Part shown: positions 1-28,769 of the stretch, one piece after another
How positions within the stretch are numbered: position 1 is the first letter of the stretch
Layout of the letters: each line of letters begins with the position of its first letter
Assembly (NCBI RefSeq): GCF_000284115.1
Contig: NC_017080.1
Span: 960,001-992,000 of the forward strand
Direction: 5' to 3'
Origin: Phycisphaera mikurensis NBRC 102666
Lineage (GTDB): Bacteria; Planctomycetota; Phycisphaerae; Phycisphaerales; Phycisphaeraceae
DNA length: 32,000 nt
The notes under the pieces: model-generated
The model's input: the letters and a program-made list of their open reading frames with translations, nothing else
What the model was told of the DNA's origin: nothing
The model's database searches: none
Program-made: the position numbers and the translations under genes

Positions 1-131
1 GCAAGAAACGCCTTGCGGCGGGCATGGCAAGCGTCTTCGAGCGGCTGAACCTGGACGCCGACGCGGTGGTCGGGCGGGTGCTGGCGATGGCGCAGCGGGA
101 CGGGCTGGCGGTGGCGGGCCGGGGCAGCTGA
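1..131 (+). CDS. Partial CDS: 3' end of an unidentified gene entering from the left edge
   Basis: Frame 3 reads ...VFERLNLDADAVVGRVLAMAQRDGLAVAGRGS* and ends at TGA 129-131. Third codon positions are almost all G/C. No recognisable domain. Confidence 0.35.
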   Translation, partial: KKRLAAGMASVFERLNLDADAVVGRVLAMAQRDGLAVAGRGS

Positions 132-247
132 ACCCGCAAGCGGCAGCGGCGGTCCCGCTGATCTACGACCGATCGCATCGCTGCCGGACCATCAAGCGTC
201 ACCCGGAGCCCGATTCAGCGTTGGCGGAGAAGGTGGCAGCCACCAAG

Positions 248-330
248 GGAAGCAAGGGGTCAAGCCCCTTGCAGAGGTGCTATAATGCCGTCGCCGAGTA
301 GGAAGCAAGGGGTCAAGCCCCTTGCAGAGG
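248..330. repeat. Two identical 30-bp direct repeats (248-277 and 301-330), each containing a hairpin
   Basis: GGAAGCAAGGGGTCAAGCCCCTTGCAGAGG occurs twice with a 53-bp period. Each copy folds as GCAAGGGG-TCAAG-CCCCTTGC, an 8-bp stem with a 5-nt loop (252-272 and 305-325). Confidence 0.9.
278..286 (+). promoter_or_regulatory. Extended -10-like promoter element TGCTATAAT
   Basis: Perfect TGnTATAAT in otherwise very GC-rich DNA, lying exactly between the two 30-bp repeats and about 280 nt upstream of the gltA ATG. No convincing -35 element. Confidence 0.35.
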
Positions 331-564
331 CCCGCGGGCCAGCCGCCGCCACCGCTCCGGACCCGGCGACGCGGCAGGTGCCGGCGGCGGGGAGGTGGTC
401 CCGGGCGCGTCGTTGCCGAGCGCAAGGCCGTTCCGCCGGCCGCCGAGGTCGATCGCGAGGCAACGCGGCACGCGTGCGGGCGGAACGGGGCCGCCCGGGG
501 ATCCTCTAGACTCCCGCAACCCGGGCCGGGCCGAGCCGGGCGCTGCCACCCCCACCGATCTTTT

Positions 565-1845
565 ATGCCTGAGAACTCCCCGCCGACCGCTCGCCTCGAC
601 CTGCCCGAAGGGCCCATCGACCTGCCGATCGTTGTTGGCACCGCCGACGAGAAGTCGGTCGACATCTCGAAGCTCCGGGCCCAAACCGGCTACATCACGC
701 TCGACGAGGGGTACCGCAACACGGGCAGCGTCAAGAGCGACATCACCTTCATCGACGGCGAGAAGGGCATCCTCCGCTACCGCGGCTATCCCATCGAGGA
801 GGTGTGCGAGAACAGCTCCTTCATTGAGACGGCGCTGCTGCTGATCCACGGCGAGAAGCCGAGCAAGGAGTCGCTCTCGAGGTTCAGCGAGCGGCTGACG
901 CACCACCAGATGATCCACGAGTCGGTGCGGCAGATGTTCGACGGCTTCCCGCCGACGGCGCACCCGATGGCGGTGCTCTCGTCGATGATCAACACGATCT
1001 CCTGCTTCCAACCGGCGATCATGAACATCGACGACGAGGAGGAGTTCGACGACACCGCGGCGATGCTGATCAGCAAGGTGCGGACGGTCGCGGCGGCCGC
1101 TTACAAGACCCAGATGGGGCATCCCATCATGTACCCGGATCCGAAGCTCACGTACTGCGAGAACTTCCTCCACATGATGTTCTCGCTCCCGCTGGGGCGG
1201 ATCGAGCCCGATCCGGACGTCGTGGAGGCGCTCAACCTCATCTTCATCCTGCACGCGGACCACGAACAGAACTGCTCGACGGCGACGGTGCGGATGGTCG
1301 GCTCCTCGGGGGCGAACCTCTTCGCCAGCTGCGCCGCCGGCGTCTGTGCCCTCTGGGGCCCGCTGCACGGCGGCGCGAACGTCGCGGTCATGAACCAGCT
1401 CGAGGAGATCCACAACAGCGACATCACGACGCGGAAGTACATCGACAACCTGAAGGCGACCAAGGGCAAGCTCTTCGGCTTCGGCCACGGCGTCTACAAG
1501 AGCTACGACCCGCGTGCGATGGTCCTCAAGAAGTCCGCCGACAAGGTGCTCGCGAAGCTCGGGGTCGACGATCCGCTGCTCGCGATCGCTCGCGAGCTGG
1601 AGGAGACGGCGCTCAACGACGAGTACTTCGTCAGCCGGAACCTCTATCCCAACGTCGACTTCTATTCCGGGATCCTCATGCGGGCGATGGGCATCCCCAC
1701 GAACATGTTCACGGTGATGTTCGCGATCGGCCGCATGCCCGGCTGGATCGCTCAGTGGTGGGAGGTCAACCAGCAGAAAAGCCGGATCTACCGGCCGCGG
1801 CAGGTCTACACCGGCGCCCGGGAGCGAGCCTGGAACGCCGGCTGA
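565..1845 (+). CDS. gltA: Citrate synthase (type II)
   Basis: Sequence ...GYITLDEGYRNTGSVKSDITFIDGEKGILRYRGYPIEE...LHADHEQNCSTATVRMVGSSGANLFASCAAGVCALWGPLHGGAN...GFGHGVYKSYDPRA... The ATG at 565 is in frame with track ORF 322..1845. The upstream part of that ORF is Arg-rich junk. Confidence 0.95.
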   Translation: MPENSPPTARLDLPEGPIDLPIVVGTADEKSVDISKLRAQTGYITLDEGYRNTGSVKSDITFIDGEKGILRYRGYPIEEVCENSSFIETALLLIHGEKPSKESLSRFSERLTHHQMIHESVRQMFDGFPPTAHPMAVLSSMINTISCFQPAIMNIDDEEEFDDTAAMLISKVRTVAAAAYKTQMGHPIMYPDPKLTYCENFLHMMFSLPLGRIEPDPDVVEALNLIFILHADHEQNCSTATVRMVGSSGANLFASCAAGVCALWGPLHGGANVAVMNQLEEIHNSDITTRKYIDNLKATKGKLFGFGHGVYKSYDPRAMVLKKSADKVLAKLGVDDPLLAIARELEETALNDEYFVSRNLYPNVDFYSGILMRAMGIPTNMFTVMFAIGRMPGWIAQWWEVNQQKSRIYRPRQVYTGARERAWNAG

Positions 1846-2522: not shown

Positions 2523-3062
2523 GTGAGCGAGGACGCGGAGACATCCAAGGCGGCCCCACCCACCGCCCCGGCGGGGCGGCTCGCGGCCGCCGGCGGCCGG
2601 GCGGTCATCTGGGGGGGCGTCGAGGAGCAGGCCCAGCTCGCGGCGTTGCTGCGACGCCGCGACCTGCTGCCCGAGCGGGTGTCCAGTGCGCCCGCGGCCG
2701 TCCTCGCGGTGCTCCGGGGCGGCCCCCCGCCCGCGGCGCTCATCCTCGTGCAGCCCAACGCGCTGCCGCTCGCGGACGAGGTGATCGAGGTGCTCCAGCA
2801 GCAGCCCGCCGCCACGCGGTGCTGGAGCTTCGAGCCCGCACCCGCCGGCCCGGGTGGCGCGGGCCTGCTGGTCCCGATCGAGGGCCCGCTGCGGCCCTCC
2901 CCCTGCTTCCGGATCGGCCCGCCGCCGGTGAACCCGGGCCCGGAGGCGGGCACGAGCCCCGCCTGGCCCCCCACCGGCCGCACGCGGCTGAGCCGAGAAG
3001 AGCTCGCGATGCTCCTCGGGCCGACGAAGACCCTCCGCACCCCTGCCGGAGACGCGGGTTGA
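2523..3062 (+). CDS. Hypothetical protein, possibly a degenerate receiver-like domain
   Basis: GTG start. Amino-acid composition is natural (A/L/P/E/V) and third positions are G/C-rich, whereas the overlapping frame of ORF 2420.. is Arg-rich junk here. Its stop TGA (3060-3062) overlaps the TTG (3059-3061) of the downstream GGDEF gene. Confidence 0.55.
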   Translation: MSEDAETSKAAPPTAPAGRLAAAGGRAVIWGGVEEQAQLAALLRRRDLLPERVSSAPAAVLAVLRGGPPPAALILVQPNALPLADEVIEVLQQQPAATRCWSFEPAPAGPGGAGLLVPIEGPLRPSPCFRIGPPPVNPGPEAGTSPAWPPTGRTRLSREELAMLLGPTKTLRTPAGDAG

Positions 3063-4387
3063 GCCCCCACACGCTGGATCCCGCACCGCCGGTCTCGGTC
3101 GGCGGCGAAGCCCCGCGGCGCGTCCTGGTGGTTCGCGACGGCCGCCTCGCGGGCTTGCTCGGCGATGCCTGCGCCGCCACCGTGGAGGTCGAGCGGATCC
3201 CCGGCTTCCTCGGCGGCCTGGCGGAGCTGATCACCGGCCGCGCGGATCGGCTGCTGGGGCCCGCCGAGGCGCTCGCCGGCATGCGTGAAGCCATGGCCGC
3301 GACGCTGCTGGACGCGGGCCTCGCGGACCGCGTGGTGCTGACCGATCCGAGCCCCTCGGTCCGCGACGCGCTGCTGGAGGCGGGCTTCCACGCCGTCCTC
3401 GACGCCGCCGCGTCCGGCGAAGAGCTCGCGGCCGCCATCGGCGCCGGCGGGCAGGCCCAAGCCGCGGGCGAGGCCGGTGCAGAGGGGCCGCAGCGGGCCG
3501 CGCCGCCCCCCGGCGGGCCGGGCACGCCGGTCCGCCCCTCGGAGACGCTCGGCGACAGCGACCTGGTGGAGGCCATCCACGACGCGGGCGGCGGCGCGGA
3601 CGGCCGCCTCCACGGGCTGATCGTGCGGCTGCTCCGCAGCGAGTCGGGGATCCCCGGCATCGAGCTCGTGCCCGAGGACGAGCCGCAAGCGGGCCAGGCC
3701 TCGGTCCGCGTGTGCTTCCGAGGCGAGTGCTTCGGGCGTCTTCAGGCGCCCCCGCCCGCGGTGGAGCAGGCGCTGGCGCCCTGGGCCGGCTGGGCGGCGC
3801 GGTGGCTGGCGTTGGAGCAGCAGACGCGGCAGCTGCGTGAGCTGGCGATGCGGGACGAGCTCACGGGCGTCTGGAACCGCCGCTACTTCAACCGCTTCCT
3901 CGCGCGAATCCTCGAGCGGGCCGCGCTCGATCGCCAGCAGGTCACGCTGCTCGTCTTCGACATCGACGACTTCAAGTCGTACAACGACCTCCACGGGCAC
4001 GCCGCCGGCGACGCCATTCTGGCCGGAGCGGCCCAGCTCATGCAATCGACCGTGCGGTCGCACGACGTCGTGGCCCGGATCGGCGGGGACGAGTTCGCGG
4101 TGATCTTCTGGGACCCCCGGGGCCGCCGCGAGGAAGGCTCCTCCCACCCCGACGACGTGCTCGCGATCGCCCGCCGCTTCCAGCGAGCGGTCACGGACCT
4201 CCGCTTCCCGCAGCTCTCCGCGGACGCGCCGGGCACCCTCACCGTCTCCGGCGGCATCGCCGGCTTTCCCTGGGACGGCCGCACGCCGGCCGAGCTGCTG
4301 CAGAAGGCGGACCTGATGGCGCTGGAGAGCAAGGCGCAGGGCAAGAACGCGATCACGCTGGGAGCGGGCCGCGAGCCTCCGGCCTGA
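3059..4387 (+). CDS. GGDEF-domain diguanylate cyclase with an N-terminal receiver-like region
   Basis: RDELTGVWNRRYFNRFL...LLVFDIDDFKSYNDLHGHAAGDAIL...RSHDVVARIGGDEFAVIF. GGDEF is intact, with an RxxD I-site at the canonical spacing. The N-terminus RRVLVVRDG...VVLTDPSPSVRDALLEAGFHAVL is REC-like. The start is uncertain: TTG 3059 is preferred and GTG 3128 is the alternative. Confidence 0.9.
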   Translation: MSPHTLDPAPPVSVGGEAPRRVLVVRDGRLAGLLGDACAATVEVERIPGFLGGLAELITGRADRLLGPAEALAGMREAMAATLLDAGLADRVVLTDPSPSVRDALLEAGFHAVLDAAASGEELAAAIGAGGQAQAAGEAGAEGPQRAAPPPGGPGTPVRPSETLGDSDLVEAIHDAGGGADGRLHGLIVRLLRSESGIPGIELVPEDEPQAGQASVRVCFRGECFGRLQAPPPAVEQALAPWAGWAARWLALEQQTRQLRELAMRDELTGVWNRRYFNRFLARILERAALDRQQVTLLVFDIDDFKSYNDLHGHAAGDAILAGAAQLMQSTVRSHDVVARIGGDEFAVIFWDPRGRREEGSSHPDDVLAIARRFQRAVTDLRFPQLSADAPGTLTVSGGIAGFPWDGRTPAELLQKADLMALESKAQGKNAITLGAGREPPA

Positions 4388-4519: not shown

Positions 4520-4720
4520 TCACGGGGTCGGCGCCGGCGGTGGCTTCCCCGTCTTCTTCTCTTCCGCCAGCTCGCGGCGGTTGATGGCCACCTCGCGGGG
4601 GAAGGAGAAGGCGAGGCGGACGCGGTCGCCGCTGACGTCCACGACCCGCACGAAGCCCAGCGGCTTGTCCGGGTCGCCGATCACGACTTCTTCGCCGATC
4701 CTTCGGGTGAGTGCGAGCAT
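4520..4720 (-). CDS. csrA: Carbon storage regulator CsrA/RsmA family RNA-binding protein
   Basis: MLALTRRIGEEVVIGDPDKPLGFVRVVDVSGDRVRLAFSFPREVAINRRELAEEKK matches the CsrA fold signature (MLxLTRxxGExxxIGD ... AP.EVxIxRxE). The ATG is at 4720-4718, preceded by GGAGAACCAAGG. Confidence 0.9.
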   Translation of the reverse strand: MLALTRRIGEEVVIGDPDKPLGFVRVVDVSGDRVRLAFSFPREVAINRRELAEEKKTGKPPPAPTP

Positions 4721-5186: not shown

Positions 5187-5259
5187 GCCACCCTAGCTCA
5201 GTTGGTAGAGCACACCCTTGGTAAGGGTGAGGTCGTGGGTTCGAGTCCCATGGGTGGCT
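5187..5259 (+). tRNA. tRNA-Thr (anticodon GGU)
   Basis: Hand-folded cloverleaf of 73 nt. Acceptor GCCACCC/GGGTGGC, D arm GCTC-AGTTGGTA-GAGC, anticodon arm CACCC-TTGGTAA-GGGTG, T arm GTGGG-TTCGAGT-CCCAT. No encoded CCA. Confidence 0.93.
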
Positions 5260-7037: not shown

Positions 7038-7111
7038 GCCGGTGTAGCTCAGTTGGTTAGAGCAGTGGATTCCAAATCCACAGGTCGCGGGTTCGAGTCC
7101 CTCCGCCGGTG
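7038..7111 (+). tRNA. tRNA-Trp (anticodon CCA)
   Basis: Hand-folded, 74 nt. D arm GCTC-AGTTGGTTA-GAGC, anticodon arm GTGGA-TTCCAAA-TCCAC, T loop TTCGAGT. The acceptor GCCGGTG/CGCCGGT has two G-U pairs and the T stem has one C-U mismatch. Canonical position upstream of secE. Confidence 0.85.
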
Positions 7112-8491: not shown

Positions 8492-9874
8492 TTAGAGCCC
8501 TGCGCGGAAGGCGTTGAGCAGGTTGAAGCCGAAGCTGGGATAGGCGGCGGCGGTGTCGGCGAGCCGCTCGGTGGCGGCGGGGTCGTGCAGACCGGTGGCG
8601 AAGAGGTTGATCGCCTCTTCAGCGCCTGGGCCCACCAGGTGGGCGCCGACGAGGCGCCGGTCGCGGGCGGCATCGGAGCCGGCGTAGACGAACTTGTAGT
8701 AGGCGTGCTCGGCGCGTTGCTGCTTCATCAGCTTCCAGGCGGAGGCGTCGCCGCTGACGGCATCGACTTCCCCGAGGCCGGCGGTACCCCGGGCCTCGGC
8801 TTCGGTGTAGCCGGCCATCGCCGCGGTGGGCAGCGTGAAGGCGGCGGCGGTGATCCGCGGCGGGTCCGGCCGCAGGTGCGTCCGCGGCGGGTCGGCGTCG
8901 AGCAGGTTGCGGCGGAGCACGCGGCCGTCGCGGGCGGCCGTGGGGGTGAGCGAGGGGTTGCCGGTGTCGGCGACGTCGCCGCCCGCGTAGATGCGGGGGT
9001 TCGTCGTGCGGAGCTGCCGATCCACGCGGACGCCGCGTTCTCCGGCCTCGACGCCGGCGGCCGGCAGGTTCAAGCCGGCGACGGCCGGAACCCGGCCGGC
9101 GGTGGCCACGACCAGGTCGACCTCCACGGGCGGGCTGCCGTCGCCCTGGCAGAGCCGGAAGCCGCTCTGGCTCGGCTCGATCGCGGTCACCCGGCGCCCC
9201 GTCGACAGGCGGACGCCCACCGCCGCCATGCCCGCGGCGACCACCCGGACCGCGTCCGCGTCGAAGGGTGCCAGGACCCGGTCCGCGGCCTCGAACACGG
9301 TGACGCGGCTGCCCGCGACGGCGGCGACCGCCGCGAACTCCAACCCGACGTACCCGCCCCCGACGAAGGCGACGCGGCGTGGGAGCGCGTCGAGACGGAG
9401 GAACGCGGCGGAGTCGATGGCGTGCCCGCCGCCGGCGGTGTCCAGCGTCCCGGGCACGCGGCCGGTGCACACCGCCGCCTTGCCGAAGCGGAAGCGATCG
9501 CCGGCGACCTCCAGCGTCTGCTCGTCGACGAAGGCGGCCTCGGCCTCCACGAGGCGGATGCCGGCGGCGGCGAGGTCGTGGCGGGTCTGCGCCGGGATCG
9601 GGGCCGTGAAAGATTCTTTGAAGGCGTGGAGCTCGCCGTACCGCAGCTCCGGCGTCCCGCCGAGGCCGTGCCCGCGGAATGCTATGAAGCGGTGGAGGGC
9701 CTCCGCGGCGGCGACCAGCGGCTTCTTCGCGTCGCAGCCGCGGTTGGCGCAGGTCCCACCCGGGCTGTGCGGGTCGATCATCAAGACCGATCGTCCGGCC
9801 TTGGCGGCGGCGTAGGCGGGCATCTGCCCGGCCGTCCCGCACCCGAGGATCGCCACGTCGACATCGGTCATCAC
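8492..9874 (-). CDS. Class I FAD-dependent pyridine nucleotide-disulfide oxidoreductase (glutathione reductase / dihydrolipoyl dehydrogenase family)
   Basis: DVAILGCGTAGQMPAYAAAK (FAD-binding GxGxxG), redox-active GGTCANRGCDAKK (CxxxxC), a second Rossmann fold VAFVGGGYVGLEFA, and IYAGGDV. The C-terminal HPT.SE-type motif is not obvious, so the substrate is unassigned. Confidence 0.9.
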   Translation of the reverse strand: MMTDVDVAILGCGTAGQMPAYAAAKAGRSVLMIDPHSPGGTCANRGCDAKKPLVAAAEALHRFIAFRGHGLGGTPELRYGELHAFKESFTAPIPAQTRHDLAAAGIRLVEAEAAFVDEQTLEVAGDRFRFGKAAVCTGRVPGTLDTAGGGHAIDSAAFLRLDALPRRVAFVGGGYVGLEFAAVAAVAGSRVTVFEAADRVLAPFDADAVRVVAAGMAAVGVRLSTGRRVTAIEPSQSGFRLCQGDGSPPVEVDLVVATAGRVPAVAGLNLPAAGVEAGERGVRVDRQLRTTNPRIYAGGDVADTGNPSLTPTAARDGRVLRRNLLDADPPRTHLRPDPPRITAAAFTLPTAAMAGYTEAEARGTAGLGEVDAVSGDASAWKLMKQQRAEHAYYKFVYAGSDAARDRRLVGAHLVGPGAEEAINLFATGLHDPAATERLADTAAAYPSFGFNLLNAFRAGL

Positions 9875-12298: not shown

Positions 12299-12324
12299 GC
12301 AGGCCGGTCCCCGGACCGGCCTGC
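12299..12324. terminator. Hairpin between the convergent actin-like and M20 genes (possible bidirectional terminator)
   Basis: GCAGGCCGGTCC-CC-GGACCGGCCTGC, 10-12 bp of perfect pairing. No U-tract. Confidence 0.4.
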
Positions 12325-12346: not shown

Positions 12347-12392
12347 CCGCGGACCGCAAGGCTTCCGGGCCCCCGGCGGCCGCGGTCCGCGG
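12347..12392. repeat. 46-nt palindromic element, copy 1 (CCGCGGACCGC-N24-GCGGTCCGCGG)
   Basis: 11-bp perfect arms at 12347-12357 and 12382-12392, with arm centres 33 bp apart. It lies 9 nt beyond the M20 stop codon on the minus strand. Confidence 0.85.
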
Positions 12393-12401
12393 ACCGGCCG
12401 C

Positions 12402-15163: not shown

Positions 15164-15211
15164 GCCGCGGACCGCGCGGCCGGCGAGCCCAAAAAGCTCG
15201 CGGTCCGCGGC
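15164..15211. repeat. Palindromic element, copy 2 (GCCGCGGACCGCG-N22-CGCGGTCCGCGGC)
   Basis: 13-bp perfect arms at 15164-15176 and 15199-15211, with centres 33 bp apart (A15171, T15204). It starts 15 nt after the M29 stop codon. Confidence 0.85.
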
Positions 15212-22073: not shown

Positions 22074-24200
22074 ATGAACAACGACCGGGAGCGTGTGCTG
22101 GCGGCGACGGATCTCGTCGCGCTGATCGGCGAGTTCGTGGCGTTGCGGCCGCAGGGCCGCGAGTTCGTCGGGCTGTGCCCCTTCCACGACGACAAGAAAC
22201 CCTCGATGGGGGTCTCGCCCGCGAAGCAGATCTTCAAGTGCTTCCCTTGCGGGGCCGGGGGCACCGCCTTCGACTTCGTGATGCGGTACCACAAGCTCGA
22301 GTTCGTGGAGGCGCTGGAGTTCCTCGCCCAGCGCAGCGGCGTCGAGCTGACGCCCTGGAAGCCGCGGACCGCCGGCTCTTTGGGCTCCAGGAGCCCGCGG
22401 TCCGCGGATTCGGCTCCCGAGGAGGAGGCGGCGCCGAGGGAGTCGCCGCGGCGTCGGCTGACCAGAGCCTGCGGGCAGGCCCAGGCCTTCTTCCAGGCGA
22501 TGCTGAAGCACGAGGTGCACGGGGCGGCGGCCCGGGCGGTCCTCCAAGCCCGCGGGATCTCGGCGGAGTCCGTCGAGCGGTTCGGCCTCGGCGCCGCACC
22601 GGACCGCTGGGACGGGCTGGAGCGGATGGTCGCCAGCAAGGCTTGGGACGCCGAGGCGTTCGCCGCCGCCGGCCTCGTCCGCGCCCGCGACAAGAGCAGA
22701 CGCGACGCCGTCGACCTCTCCGCGGGAGCCCCCGCCGCCGCCGCCGTCGCCGACGGTGGCAGCTTCGACATGCTCCGGCACCGGCTGGTCTTCCCGATCG
22801 CGGACGCGCTCGGCCGGCCGGTCGCTTTCGGCGGCCGGAAGATCCGCGAGGAGGACGACCCGAAGTACCTCAACACGCCCGAGAGCGACGTCTTCCACAA
22901 GCAGCGGACGCTGTACGGCCTGCACCTGGCGAAGCAGAAGATCCTCGAGACCCGCACGGCGGTGCTGGTCGAGGGGTACACCGACGTGGTCGCCTGCCAC
23001 CAGGCCGGGGCGACCAACGTCGTCGCCGCGCTGGGGACCGCGTTGACGCCCGGCCACGCCGGCGTGCTCCGCCGCTTCTGCGACCGGGTCGTGCTCGTGA
23101 TGGACGGCGACGCGGCGGGGCAGTCCGCGGCCGACCGGGCGATCGAGACCTTCCTGACCGCCGACCTCGACGTCGCGCTCGCCGCGCTGCCCGACGGCCT
23201 TGATCCCGACGAGCTGCTCAAGGAGCGCGGCCTGGACGCTTGGAATCGGGCCGTCGGCTCGGCGCAGGACGCGCTGGCCTGGCAGCTGGACAAGCTCGCA
23301 GCGACGCTCGGCGGCGACGCGACGGTGACCGGACGGCAGAAACTCGCCGAGGCGTTCCTCCAGCGGATGGCCGACGCCGGGCTCGCGAAGGCGTCGCCGC
23401 TGCGCCGGGCGTTCCTGCACGAGCGGCTTGGGGAGCTGCTGCACGTGCCCGGCGACGCGATCGGCGGGATGATCGACCGGCTCCCCGCCCGGGCCGCCGC
23501 CTACGAGCCGGCGCCCGAGCCCGATCCCGGCGAGTACGCGATGTACGTGCAGGGCAGCGAGGACCGGGAGGACGAGCCGCCGATGCCGCCGGAGGGCTGG
23601 GAGGAGGCGGGCGCGGCCACCGAGCAGGCCGCGACGCCTGCGCCGGTGAGCCCGGTTCGGGCGCCTACGCTCCGGGCGGTCCGGGCGGCGGAGCTCGGGG
23701 TGCTGGCCGCGCTCGCCAGCCGAACGGCGCTCTTCGACGCGACGCTGCCGGGGGGGACCCCGGTCGACGAGGCCCTGACCCCGGCGGACTTCGTGACGCC
23801 GGGCCACCGCCGGGTGTTCCAGGTGCTCTTCGATCGGCTCTGCCGCGGGGAGCGGCCCAGCCTGGCGGGTCTGGTGGCGGGGATCGACGACCCGCAGGAC
23901 CGCGGGCTGCTGCTGGAAGCCGAGGCCGCGGAGGGGATCGGCGACGCGGACGACGCCTCCGCCCTCGCCGTCCTGGAGCAGTCCGCCACCGCCCTCATCG
24001 CCCACCGCCGCCGCGCCGCCCGCCGCCTCGACACCGCCCGCGTCCTCGCCGAGCTGCGGGACGACCCGCCCGCCGACCCCGCCGATCCCGCCACCGCCCA
24101 AGCCGACGCCGCTCGGCTCGACCGCCTCGAGAAGCTCCGCCTGCTGATGGCCGAAGGCCAAGCCCCCACCCGCATCACCCGCCTCCGCCCCTCGCGCTAA
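22074..24200 (+). CDS. dnaG: DNA primase
   Basis: CHC2 zinc finger [37 protein letters not shown] domain [16 protein letters not shown]...[18 protein letters not shown]. Confidence 0.96.
22362..22407. repeat. Palindromic element, copy 4, embedded in-frame in dnaG
   Basis: CCGCGGACCGC (22362-22372), N24, GCGGTCCGCGG (22397-22407), with centres 33 bp apart. It encodes ...[17 protein letters not shown]... in the linker after the zinc-finger domain. Confidence 0.8.
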
Positions 24201-28723: not shown

Positions 28724-28769
28724 CCGCGGACCGCGGCGGGACGCGGAGGAAAACGGCGGCGGTCCGCGG
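28724..28769. repeat. Palindromic element, copy 3
   Basis: CCGCGGACCGC (28724-28734), N24, GCGGTCCGCGG (28759-28769), with centres A28730 and T28763 33 bp apart. It lies in the intergenic gap 45 nt beyond the Gfo/Idh/MocA stop codon on the minus strand. Confidence 0.85.

What the first reader, a model, noticed from the sequence alone, without database searches (positions are those of the whole stretch)
12347..12392. A 46-nt palindromic element family (CCGCGGACCGC-N24-GCGGTCCGCGG) with identical geometry at four sites in 32 kb
Read directly from the sequence. Copies lie at 12347-12392, 15164-15211 (13-bp arms), 22362-22407 and 28724-28769.

- In every copy the arm centres (the A of GGACC and the T of GGTCC) are exactly 33 bp apart.
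- The 24 nt between the 11-bp arms differ in sequence. Several loops can form an inner stem, for example GGGCTCC-A-GGAGCCC in the dnaG copy and CGAGC...GCTCG in copy 2.
- Each arm is itself a near-perfect 13-bp palindrome, CCGCGGWCCGCGG. It contains a SacII site (CCGCGG) and an RsrII-type site (CGGWCCG).
- Three copies sit 9-45 nt past stop codons, of the M20 peptidase, the M29 aminopeptidase and the Gfo/Idh/MocA gene. Copies 1 and 2 flank the divergent peptidase pair.

By my rough composition estimate, an 11-mer of this kind is expected far less than once per window. Four perfectly spaced pairs are therefore not chance.

The position after stop codons resembles REP/BIME-like or MITE-like hairpins. 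However, the fixed-length variable loop and the self-palindromic arms would fit equally well with paired binding sites for a dimeric DNA-binding protein three helical turns apart. I do not recognise it as a named element.
Basis: seen in the sequence. Interest (0 to 1): 0.7.

Follow-up and report, generated by a model that had tools for sequence, protein, structure and literature searches.

The report
REP-like palindrome pairs in Phycisphaera
The window carries a real, lineage-specific family of 46-base palindromic repeats that resembles the REP/REPIN elements of proteobacteria and mostly sits just after stop codons. At least one copy was built inside a conserved gene by point mutations rather than by insertion, which is unexpected for such elements.

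Summary
The source is Phycisphaera mikurensis. The conserved unit is CCGCGGACCG-N26-CGGTCCGCGG (46 nt).

- **Copy number:** the window holds 6 copies, the 4 reported plus degenerate ones at 3321 and 9243. In 92.7 kb of this genome there are 14 copies with N26 and 3 with N27, and no exact copy at any other spacing from 18 to 34.
- **Range:** the family also occurs in four related uncultured Phycisphaera-like genomes and in about 30 contigs of one marine metagenome.
- **Position:** intergenic copies lie 1-45 nt after stop codons, with no T-tract following.
- **Interior:** interiors differ between copies but share a weak consensus and fold better than shuffled interiors.
- **Conservation:** the arms are conserved at orthologous sites while their surroundings diverge.
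- **In-place origin:** copies in an SDR gene and a pyridine-nucleotide oxidoreductase gene overlay gap-free coding sequence. The SDR copy arose in place through about 8 substitutions.
- **Possible partner:** the genome has at least 5 RAYT-like Y1 transposase paralogs. One has its 3' end at window 1-131. Two paralogs (58% identical) keep an N27 copy at the same position inside their own ORFs.

Best reading: a REP-doublet (REPIN/BIME-like) family tied to RAYT-like enzymes, with arms under selection. This is a new variant of a known kind. The function has not been demonstrated.

The parts
12347..12392 (.). Copy 1. Exact 11-nt arms. Lies between the convergent mreB and M20 peptidase genes, 9 nt after the M20 stop codon.
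   Evidence: RNA MFE -38.2 kcal/mol, z = -4.1.
15165..15210 (.). Copy 2. Exact arms (13 bp if read 15164-15211). Lies 16 nt after the M29 aminopeptidase stop codon.
22362..22407 (.). Copy 3. Lies inside dnaG, in the linker after the Zn-ribbon, and is read as [15 protein letters not shown]. The arms are kept in two relatives whose DnaG is about 80% identical.
28724..28769 (.). Copy 4. Lies 45 nt after the Gfo/Idh/MocA stop codon and 103 nt upstream of the AP_endonuc_2 start. The arms also align with relative L182 in an intergenic region that otherwise cannot be aligned.
3321..3366 (.). Degenerate copy, TCGCGGACCG-N26-CGGTCCGCGA, inside the GGDEF gene (3059-4387 +). The two changes are at the outermost positions and remain complementary (T...A).
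9243..9288 (.). Degenerate copy with 2 arm mismatches, inside the pyridine-nucleotide-disulfide oxidoreductase gene (8492-9871 -). It overlays the conserved sequence AADRVLAPFDADAVRV with no indel.
1..131 (+). 3' end of a RAYT-like HUH/Y1 transposase gene (window -954..131) and candidate protein partner. Its ORF contains a 47-nt (N27) variant of the doublet at window -257..-211, outside the window.

Best explanation
**What it is.** This is a REP-doublet (REPIN/BIME-like) repeat family of the Phycisphaera lineage. Two inverted copies of a 10-13-nt near-palindromic unit, CCGCGGWCCG(CGG), are held 26 nt apart. I extrapolate roughly 450-700 copies per 3.8-Mb genome.

**What is shown.**
- The arms and their spacing are the conserved determinants.
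- The spacer is free to vary but tends to fold.
- Copies concentrate within a few to a few tens of nt after stop codons.
- The arms are conserved at orthologous sites.
- At least one copy was created in place by substitutions.
- RAYT-like Y1 enzymes of the same genome carry a conserved internal copy.

**What is inferred.**
- A sequence-specific protein reads both arms at a fixed distance. The most plausible candidate is one of the RAYT-like HUH/Y1 enzymes, which bind hairpins in single-stranded DNA.
- When transcribed, the element forms a hairpin of -25 to -40 kcal/mol at mRNA 3' ends. It could act there as a 3'-end stabiliser or as a ribosome-proximal hairpin.
- The family is therefore maintained by selection or drive on the arms, not by transposition alone.
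For: **Geometry.** Strict N26 spacing with an N27 minority, and no exact copy at any other spacing.

**Spread in the lineage.** The family is present with the same geometry in relatives L122, L123, L182 and L183 and in about 30 contigs of one marine assembly.

**Match to the published REPIN description.**
- Inverted REP doublet.
- Spacers never identical, yet structured.
- One dominant spacing with +/-1 variants.
- A/T runs inside the doublet next to the arms.
- Several distinct RAYTs per genome.

**Interior.**
- Interiors share a weak consensus. Pairwise identity of at least 15/26 was seen 88 times against about 6 expected.
- Interiors fold better than shuffled interiors (mean z = -0.90, t = -5.5, n = 58).

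**Position.** P. mikurensis intergenic copies lie 4, 6, 8, 9, 16, 45, 68, 91 and 228 nt after a stop codon. In the marine assembly at least 11 of 33 copies lie 1-23 nt after one.

**Conservation of the arms.**
- In dnaG, the five arm codons that are invariant in all three species (P, R, T of the left arm; S, A of the right) all keep their third base, against 45% of same-amino-acid codons elsewhere in the gene.
- The arms align in an otherwise unalignable intergenic region.

**RAYT link.**
- The Y1 protein matches NCBIfam REP_Tyr_transpos with E = 4.6e-12.
- The best structural match of its model is 4er8, RAYT bound to a REP hairpin.
- Paralogs P0121 and P0124 (58% amino-acid identity, 66% nucleotide identity) keep 19 of 20 arm bases with N27 at the homologous ORF position.
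- All three N27 copies found in 92.7 kb lie in Y1 genes.
Against: - **Y1 genes are not flanked by the doublet.** None of the three Y1 genes examined (2 of at least 5 paralog families) has it on either side. They are flanked by other hairpins or repeats.
- **No tag.** There is no unpaired GTAG or CGTC tag.
- **Many intragenic copies.** 6 of 16 P. mikurensis copies lie inside genes.
- **Some copies are not insertions.** The SDR and Pyr_redox copies are gap-free overlays. The SDR copy arose by about 8 substitutions, including 3 amino-acid changes. A transposition model does not predict this.
- **Fixed spacing in in-place copies.** The in-place copies have exactly N26. A hairpin alone does not need a fixed loop length. 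A double-stranded-DNA binder would explain the spacing more simply.
- **No direct evidence.** No insertion/empty-site pair was found, and there is no evidence for transcription, binding or cleavage.
Confidence: 0.5

Rival explanations
1. The element is a bipartite operator on double-stranded DNA. A dimeric or tetrameric DNA-binding protein unrelated to transposition (architectural, roadblock or topology-related) binds two 10-bp half-sites 36 bp apart. The sites evolve and turn over in place under selection, like transcription-factor sites, HIP1 or uptake sequences.
For: - The SDR copy arose in place through about 8 substitutions, with exact N26 spacing.
- The Pyr_redox and GGDEF copies also have N26.
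- Only the arms are strongly conserved.
- Unpaired single arms are rare: 2 against 22 paired arms in 50.6 kb.
- Mirrored complementarity of the interior is not above expectation.
- Possible site turnover: L183 has the copy in the intergenic region about 200 nt from where P. mikurensis and L182 have it inside the SDR gene.
Against: - Copies cluster within 1-20 nt of stop codons.
- Interiors fold better than shuffled interiors.
- There is a conserved internal copy in RAYT-like genes.
- Subfamily structure exists, for example 13-nt arms ending TCG in the marine assembly.
- No candidate binding protein was identified.
Confidence: 0.22
2. The element is a purely selfish REPIN or MITE spread by a RAYT or IS200-type transposase. 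It has no host function, and its position after stop codons only reflects where insertions are tolerated.
For: - The doublet architecture and copy number match those of REPINs.
- RAYT-like genes are present.
- The dnaG linker is 11-14 aa longer in the clade that carries the copy.
- No copies occur in a 12.7-kb RHS/DUF6973 stretch.
Against: - The SDR copy arose in place.
- The arms are conserved at synonymous sites and in a diverged intergenic region.
- Interiors are almost unrelated, although the family is shared by species whose orthologous proteins are 80-89% identical.
- There are no target-site duplications.
Confidence: 0.1
3. The elements are transcript-level hairpins only: U-tract-less terminators or 3' stabilisers that converged on one stem sequence.
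For: - The hairpins are stable.
- They lie after stop codons.
- Canonical U-tract terminators are not above chance in this region.
Against: - Copies lie inside dnaG, the SDR gene and the oxidoreductase gene.
- No T-tract follows the element.
- A hairpin function needs neither one fixed 10-nt sequence nor a fixed 26-nt loop.
- The polarity of the interior is not tied to gene direction, 7 against 4.
Confidence: 0.07
4. The element is a DNA-uptake-signal-like motif that accumulates through biased uptake and recombination.
For: - The motif arises by substitution inside genes.
- Intergenic copies sit at gene ends as inverted pairs, as described for USS and DUS (one search lists that literature; the comparison itself rests on my own knowledge).
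Against: - Single arms are rare, whereas USS and DUS are mostly single.
- Competence is unknown in this organism.
- A 46-bp bipartite uptake signal has no precedent.
Confidence: 0.04

Closest known systems
REPINs (REP doublets forming hairpins) with RAYT transposases, as in Pseudomonas fluorescens SBW25 (Bertels & Rainey; PMC3337134, PMC3116915)
   Same: - Two inverted copies of a short imperfect palindrome whose central base sets the orientation.
- One dominant spacing with +/-1 variants.
- Spacers never identical but foldable.
- A/T runs inside the doublet.
- Hundreds of copies per genome.
- Several distinct RAYT-like genes in the genome.
   Different: - Much smaller: 46 nt against about 89-110 nt.
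- The spacer is almost unrelated between copies.
- About 40% of copies are intragenic.
- At least one copy arose by substitution in place.
- The RAYT-like genes examined are not flanked by the doublet. Instead they carry an N27 copy inside the ORF.
- One RAYT-like gene is duplicated (96% identity).
E. coli REP/BIME elements
   Same: - Palindromic units in inverted pairs with linkers of defined length.
- Located at gene 3' ends.
- Many lie close to stop codons. I recall this from Liang, Rudd & Deutscher 2015; the paper is not in the searchable library.
   Different: - No GTAG tag.
- The arms are invariant and the linker is variable, the reverse of BIME linkers.
- IHF or gyrase binding is unknown here.
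GTAG- and CGTC-tagged REP superfamilies (Di Nocera et al. 2013; PMC3733652)
   Same: - Short stem-loop repeats.
- Head-to-head dimers.
- Some intragenic copies.
- Present in the PVC superphylum.
- CGTC families lack a flanking transposase.
   Different: - No conserved unpaired tetranucleotide tag.
- Intragenic tagged REPs are insertions that add 20-30 aa. Here two copies add nothing.
HIP1 of cyanobacteria and USS/DUS uptake sequences (comparison from my own knowledge)
   Same: An over-represented motif that arises by point substitution inside genes and is conserved at orthologous positions.
   Different: Those motifs are single short units of 8-12 nt. This one is an obligate pair with a fixed 26-nt gap and a strong preference for gene ends.

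Membership tests
REPIN (REP doublet) | [quoted passage not shown] | tested here: met
   All copies are CCGCGGACCG...CGGTCCGCGG. Single arms are rare.
REPIN (REP doublet) | One dominant discrete spacing with minor variants; the spacer is poorly conserved but folds | tested here: met
   N26 occurs 14 times and N27 3 times, with nothing else. Interior folding z = -0.90, n = 58. No two interiors are alike.
REPIN (REP doublet) | Copies arise by transposition, as an insertion relative to an empty site | tested here: not met
   Not met for the copy that could be tested against an empty site. The SDR copy is gap-free and arose by about 8 substitutions. The Pyr_redox copy is also gap-free, but no empty-site ortholog was examined for it. 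dnaG is inconclusive: its linker is 11-14 aa longer in the clade that carries the copy.
REPIN (REP doublet) | A cognate single-copy RAYT gene flanked by the repeats | tested here: inconclusive
   RAYT-like genes are present. Three genes from 2 of at least 5 paralog families are not flanked by the doublet. Two paralogs do carry it inside the ORF. The other paralogs could not be fetched.
Tagged REP (GTAG or CGTC superfamily) | A conserved unpaired GTAG or CGTC tetranucleotide at one end | tested here: not met
   Information content of the outer flanks is at most 0.3 bit per position over 130 half-sites.
Classical REP | Extragenic location, mainly at 3' ends or between convergent genes | tested here: inconclusive
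   9 of 16 P. mikurensis copies are intergenic, and all of these lie 3' of a gene. One overlaps a stop codon and 6 are intragenic.
MITE | Terminal inverted repeats plus a target-site duplication, with an interior derived from a parent IS | tested here: not met
   No duplicated or conserved flanks. The interior is not conserved.
Intrinsic terminator | GC-rich hairpin followed by a U-tract | tested here: not met
   No T-run follows the element in 20 oriented copies. Terminator-like sites number 9 against 7.8 expected, and none coincides with an element.
USS/DUS-type uptake sequence | A single short motif, abundant as singletons, in a naturally competent organism | tested here: not met
   Singletons are rare. 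Competence cannot be tested with these tools.
Rfam RNA families | Match to a curated covariance model | tested here: not met
   Only two tRNAs reach the gathering threshold. Nothing lies on the elements at E <= 1.

The most novel reading that the evidence does not exclude
The doublet is a selected, or driven, bipartite recognition signal that this lineage builds by point substitution even inside conserved genes and keeps at orthologous positions. It would be read at a fixed 26-nt gap by a domesticated RAYT-like enzyme or by another dimeric protein. On this reading the REP-like sequences persist through host-level selection on a chromosomal or mRNA function, not through transposition.
Probability: 0.3. 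Interest if true: 0.8.

Novelty: new variant of a known kind. Interest (0 to 1): 0.6.

Why it matters
REP/REPIN elements are abundant, but it has long been debated whether they are selfish DNA or serve the host. This system offers several handles on that question.

- It is a compact 46-nt family in a phylum where none has been described.
- The arms are invariant and the spacer is free to vary.
- There is a documented case of origin by substitution inside a conserved gene.
- The arms are conserved at synonymous sites.
- A conserved copy sits inside the RAYT-like genes themselves.

Together these make the question directly testable, by binding and cleavage assays with the Y1 proteins and by comparative genomics of gain by insertion against gain by substitution. 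The family is also a practical annotation issue for Phycisphaera genomes, because the hairpins lie immediately after stop codons and inside ORFs.

Tried and rejected
- **Even spacing along the chromosome.** In 34 kb the gaps looked regular (minimum-gap p = 0.009, CV p = 0.012). Extending the sequence revealed a 12.7-kb gap and 2.8-kb neighbours, so I dropped the idea.
- **Simple long hairpin.** Mirrored complementarity of the interior is not above the permutation expectation (257 against 257.8 pairs).
- **Interior polarity tied to gene direction.** The split is 7 against 4, so there is no rule.
- **RNA-specific G·U wobble at position 11.** T-G and C-A mismatches are equally frequent on the transcribed strand.
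- **Canonical terminator.** Not supported.
- **Known families and literature.** Rfam gave nothing. No viral contig carries the motif. There is no literature on palindromes in P. mikurensis.
- **Chance or composition.** Excluded.
- **Integron attC and CsrA sites.** I considered both from memory and rejected them. The neighbouring genes are housekeeping genes, the length is fixed, and the GGA lies inside the stem.
- **Y1 homologs on element-bearing contigs.** None found.
- **Technical dead ends.**
  - The plasmid records AP012339 and NC_017081 are not held.
  - Three exact-protein look-ups failed.

Full report
**Source and observation**

The window is from Phycisphaera mikurensis NBRC 102666 (GC about 72%). 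Its DnaG is 100% identical to the NCBI protein and lies on contig JACHEL010000007.1 of GCA_014207395.1.

The four reported palindromes exist exactly as described. With up to 3 mismatches there are 6 hits against 0.03 expected. The extra two, at 3321-3366 and 9243-9288, have the same 46-nt geometry.

The invariant core is CCGCGGACCG-N26-CGGTCCGCGG. Position 11 varies between C and T, and the 13-nt self-palindrome is only a consensus tendency.

**The spacing rule**

I tested the rule with only the 7-mers CGGACCG and CGGTCCG. They occur 16 times each in 34.2 kb. Seven pairs lie exactly 33 nt apart and one other pair lies within 120 nt.

I then assembled 50.6 kb around the window and added two other 21-kb loci of the same genome. 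In these 92.7 kb:
- Exact arms occur 10 times with N26 and twice with N27.
- Exact arms never occur at the other 15 spacings tested between 18 and 34.
- With up to 2 mismatches there are 14 copies with N26 and 3 with N27.

This extrapolates to roughly 450-700 copies per genome. The estimate is biased, because the window was flagged for being rich in copies.

As a control, the same 11-mer arms occur in 120 loci of unrelated high-GC genomes at every spacing from N10 to N40, and at N24 only 3 times.

**Distribution in other organisms**

Four uncultured relatives carry copies with the same geometry but different interiors.
- L122 and L123 have DnaG about 80% identical to that of P. mikurensis. L182 and L183 have the SDR protein 89% and 86% identical.
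- L182 holds 9 copies in 20.8 kb.

An exact-pattern scan of metagenomes returned 53 contigs. Of these, 31 come from the ORXU/ORXT/ORXM marine assemblies and hold 33 copies. Some of the remaining hits are probably chance.

No viral contig has the motif. Rfam has no match. I found no literature on it.

**Anatomy**

- **Hairpin.** The arms pair into a 10-11-bp GC stem. RNA folding energies are -25.7 to -38.2 kcal/mol (z = -2.6 to -5.6).
- **Interior is not a plain extension of the palindrome.** Mirrored complementarity equals the permutation expectation, except at position 11 (0.61 against 0.36).
- **Interior is not random.**
  - Pairwise identity of at least 15/26 occurs 88 times against about 6 expected.
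  - An oriented consensus emerges, with a T-run and an A-run next to GC-rich segments inside the arms.
  - Real interiors fold better than shuffled ones (mean z = -0.90, t = -5.5, n = 58).
- **Flanks.** The outer flanks carry no conserved tag or duplication.
- **No terminator tail.** No T-tract follows the element. Canonical terminator-like sites are not above chance in the region.

**Position relative to genes**

Of 16 P. mikurensis copies:
- 9 are intergenic, and all of these lie 3' of a gene. Their distances from the stop codon are 4, 6, 8, 9, 16, 45, 68, 91 and 228 nt.
- 1 overlaps a stop codon.
- 6 are intragenic: GGDEF, Pyr_redox, dnaG, SDR and two Y1 genes.

In the marine assembly at least 11 of 33 copies start 1-23 nt after a stop codon. 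In L182 two copies lie 2 and 7 nt after stop codons.

**Conservation**

- **dnaG.** The copy sits in a variable linker that is 11-14 aa longer in the clade carrying it.
  - The left arm is identical in all three species and the outer 8 nt of the right arm are identical, while only 10 of 24 interior bases are invariant.
  - All five arm codons that are invariant in the three species keep their third base, against 45% (38 of 85) of same-amino-acid codons in the conserved N-terminal part of the gene (p about 0.02).
- **Gfo/Idh/MocA to AP_endonuc_2 intergenic region.** The arms align between P. mikurensis and L182, although the rest of this region cannot be aligned.

**Not all copies are insertions**

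- The SDR copy has exact arms and reads PRTDVENVLEELRSAG. The Pyr_redox copy reads AADRVLAPFDADAVRV. Both align without gaps to solved homologs.
- For the SDR gene, an 11-sequence protein alignment is gap-free in this region.
- The syntenic ortholog in L183 has CCCGAAGCCG...CGCGCCGCCG. That differs at 8 of the 20 arm positions, and the protein reads PEA...RAAG like all outgroups.
- P. mikurensis and L182 have the arms, and the protein reads PRT...RSAG.
- The doublet was therefore built in place by about 8 substitutions, including three amino-acid changes, at exactly N26.
- L183 instead has a perfect copy in the intergenic region about 200 nt away, 33 nt after the upstream stop codon. This looks like site turnover, but it is a single case.

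**RAYT-like enzymes**

- **Two duplicated genes beside the window.** Immediately left of the window lie two 96%-identical copies of a 361-363-aa gene. The second ends at window 131.
- **Evidence that they are RAYT-like.**
  - The protein has HUH and Y motifs.
  - It matches Pfam Y1_Tnp marginally and NCBIfam REP_Tyr_transpos with E = 4.6e-12, below the curated cut-off.
  - An AlphaFold model (pLDDT 74.8) has as its best PDB match 4er8, the RAYT bound to a REP hairpin, followed by the IS608 and ISDra2 TnpA structures.
- **Paralogs.** P. mikurensis has at least 5 divergent paralogs. JGI names some homologs RayT.
- **Flanks.** The genes examined are flanked by other repeats, not by the doublet. 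P0121 has GCAAGGGG-TCAAG-CCCCTTGC hairpins and GGAAGCAAGGGG tandem repeats. P0124 has GGGGTGACACCC repeats.
- **An internal copy is conserved.**
  - P0121 (exact) and its paralog P0124 (one mismatch) carry the doublet with N27 at the homologous position of their ORFs. The two are 58% identical in protein and 66% in nucleotides.
  - The position is a disordered linker, and the rare Gly codon GGT is retained in both.
  - 19 of 20 arm bases are identical, with p about 0.003 at 66% background identity.
  - All three N27 copies in the 92.7 kb are in Y1 genes, and all N26 copies are outside them.

**Interpretation**

The architecture matches the published description of REPINs point by point, and the genome has RAYT-like enzymes that are specifically linked to the motif. 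I therefore place the element closest to REP doublets (REPIN/BIME-like).

It fails several membership features:
- There is no GTAG or CGTC tag.
- No RAYT flanked by the doublet has been found so far.
- At least one copy was made by substitution rather than insertion.

The fixed N26 spacing in copies that arose in place argues that a protein measures the distance between the arms. That keeps a double-stranded-DNA bipartite-site model alive. The function is inferred, not shown. Candidates are an mRNA 3' hairpin, a RAYT substrate or regulator, or a chromosomal site.

**Verdict**

This is a real, lineage-specific repeat family and a new variant of a known kind. Its unexpected property is origin in place under apparent selection on the arms, and that deserves follow-up.

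Noticed in passing
window 1-131 and 249-325; L179 3585-4837 and 8327-9766: Two 96%-identical copies of a RAYT-like Y1 transposase gene lie 4.7 kb apart on either side of RHS-repeat genes. Each is preceded by tandem GGAAGCAAGGGG(TCA) repeats that end in the hairpin GCAAGGGG-TCAAG-CCCCTTGC. Two more such hairpins follow the second copy, at window 252 and 305. This is a second, separate repeat family and may be the ends of an IS200-like unit.
   Followed up: partly
window 12299-12324: A perfect 11-bp-stem hairpin, GCAGGCCGGTCC-CCGG-GGACCGGCCTGC, lies just after mreB and 23 nt before copy 1. This convergent intergenic region therefore holds two different strong hairpins. The sequence also contains GGTCC/GGACC.
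   Followed up: no
L121 20720-20940 (window coordinates about 32793-33013, just beyond the window): The intergenic region upstream of the SDR gene holds a long inverted repeat made of tandem GCGAAGAA / TTCTTCGC units. L182 has a different purine-rich inverted repeat at the same place, whereas L183 has the 46-nt element there.
   Followed up: no
window 12387-12396 and window coordinate 37613 (L177): Two isolated 10-nt arms have no partner at N26 or N27. One of them overlaps the right arm of copy 1.
   Followed up: no
L179 605-7767 (window -8831..-1669): A 12.7-kb stretch with RHS-repeat, DUF6973 and dockerin-like genes has no N26 copy. It may be recently acquired DNA that has not yet gained the motif.
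   Followed up: no
L002, L009, L014 and about 30 other Kitasatospora loci; L004, L016-L018 and other Streptomyces loci: The same 11-mer arms, CCGCGGACCGC...GCGGTCCGCGG, recur with N38 in many Kitasatospora species. They recur with N16 in several Streptomyces species. In each genus they appear to mark one conserved orthologous locus. The nature of these loci was not examined.
   Followed up: no
L131 1488-1533: A contig of only 39% GC carries a perfect copy with 11-bp arms (CCGCGGACCGG...CCGGTCCGCGG). This is unlikely by chance at that composition, and its origin is unknown.
   Followed up: no
window 4520-4720 (-), 5187-5259, 7038-7111: A CsrA gene and two tRNA genes flank the tuf - rpmG - secE - nusG cluster. 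Further on, L28 - dnaG - rpoD are arranged in tandem like a macromolecular-synthesis operon.
   Followed up: no
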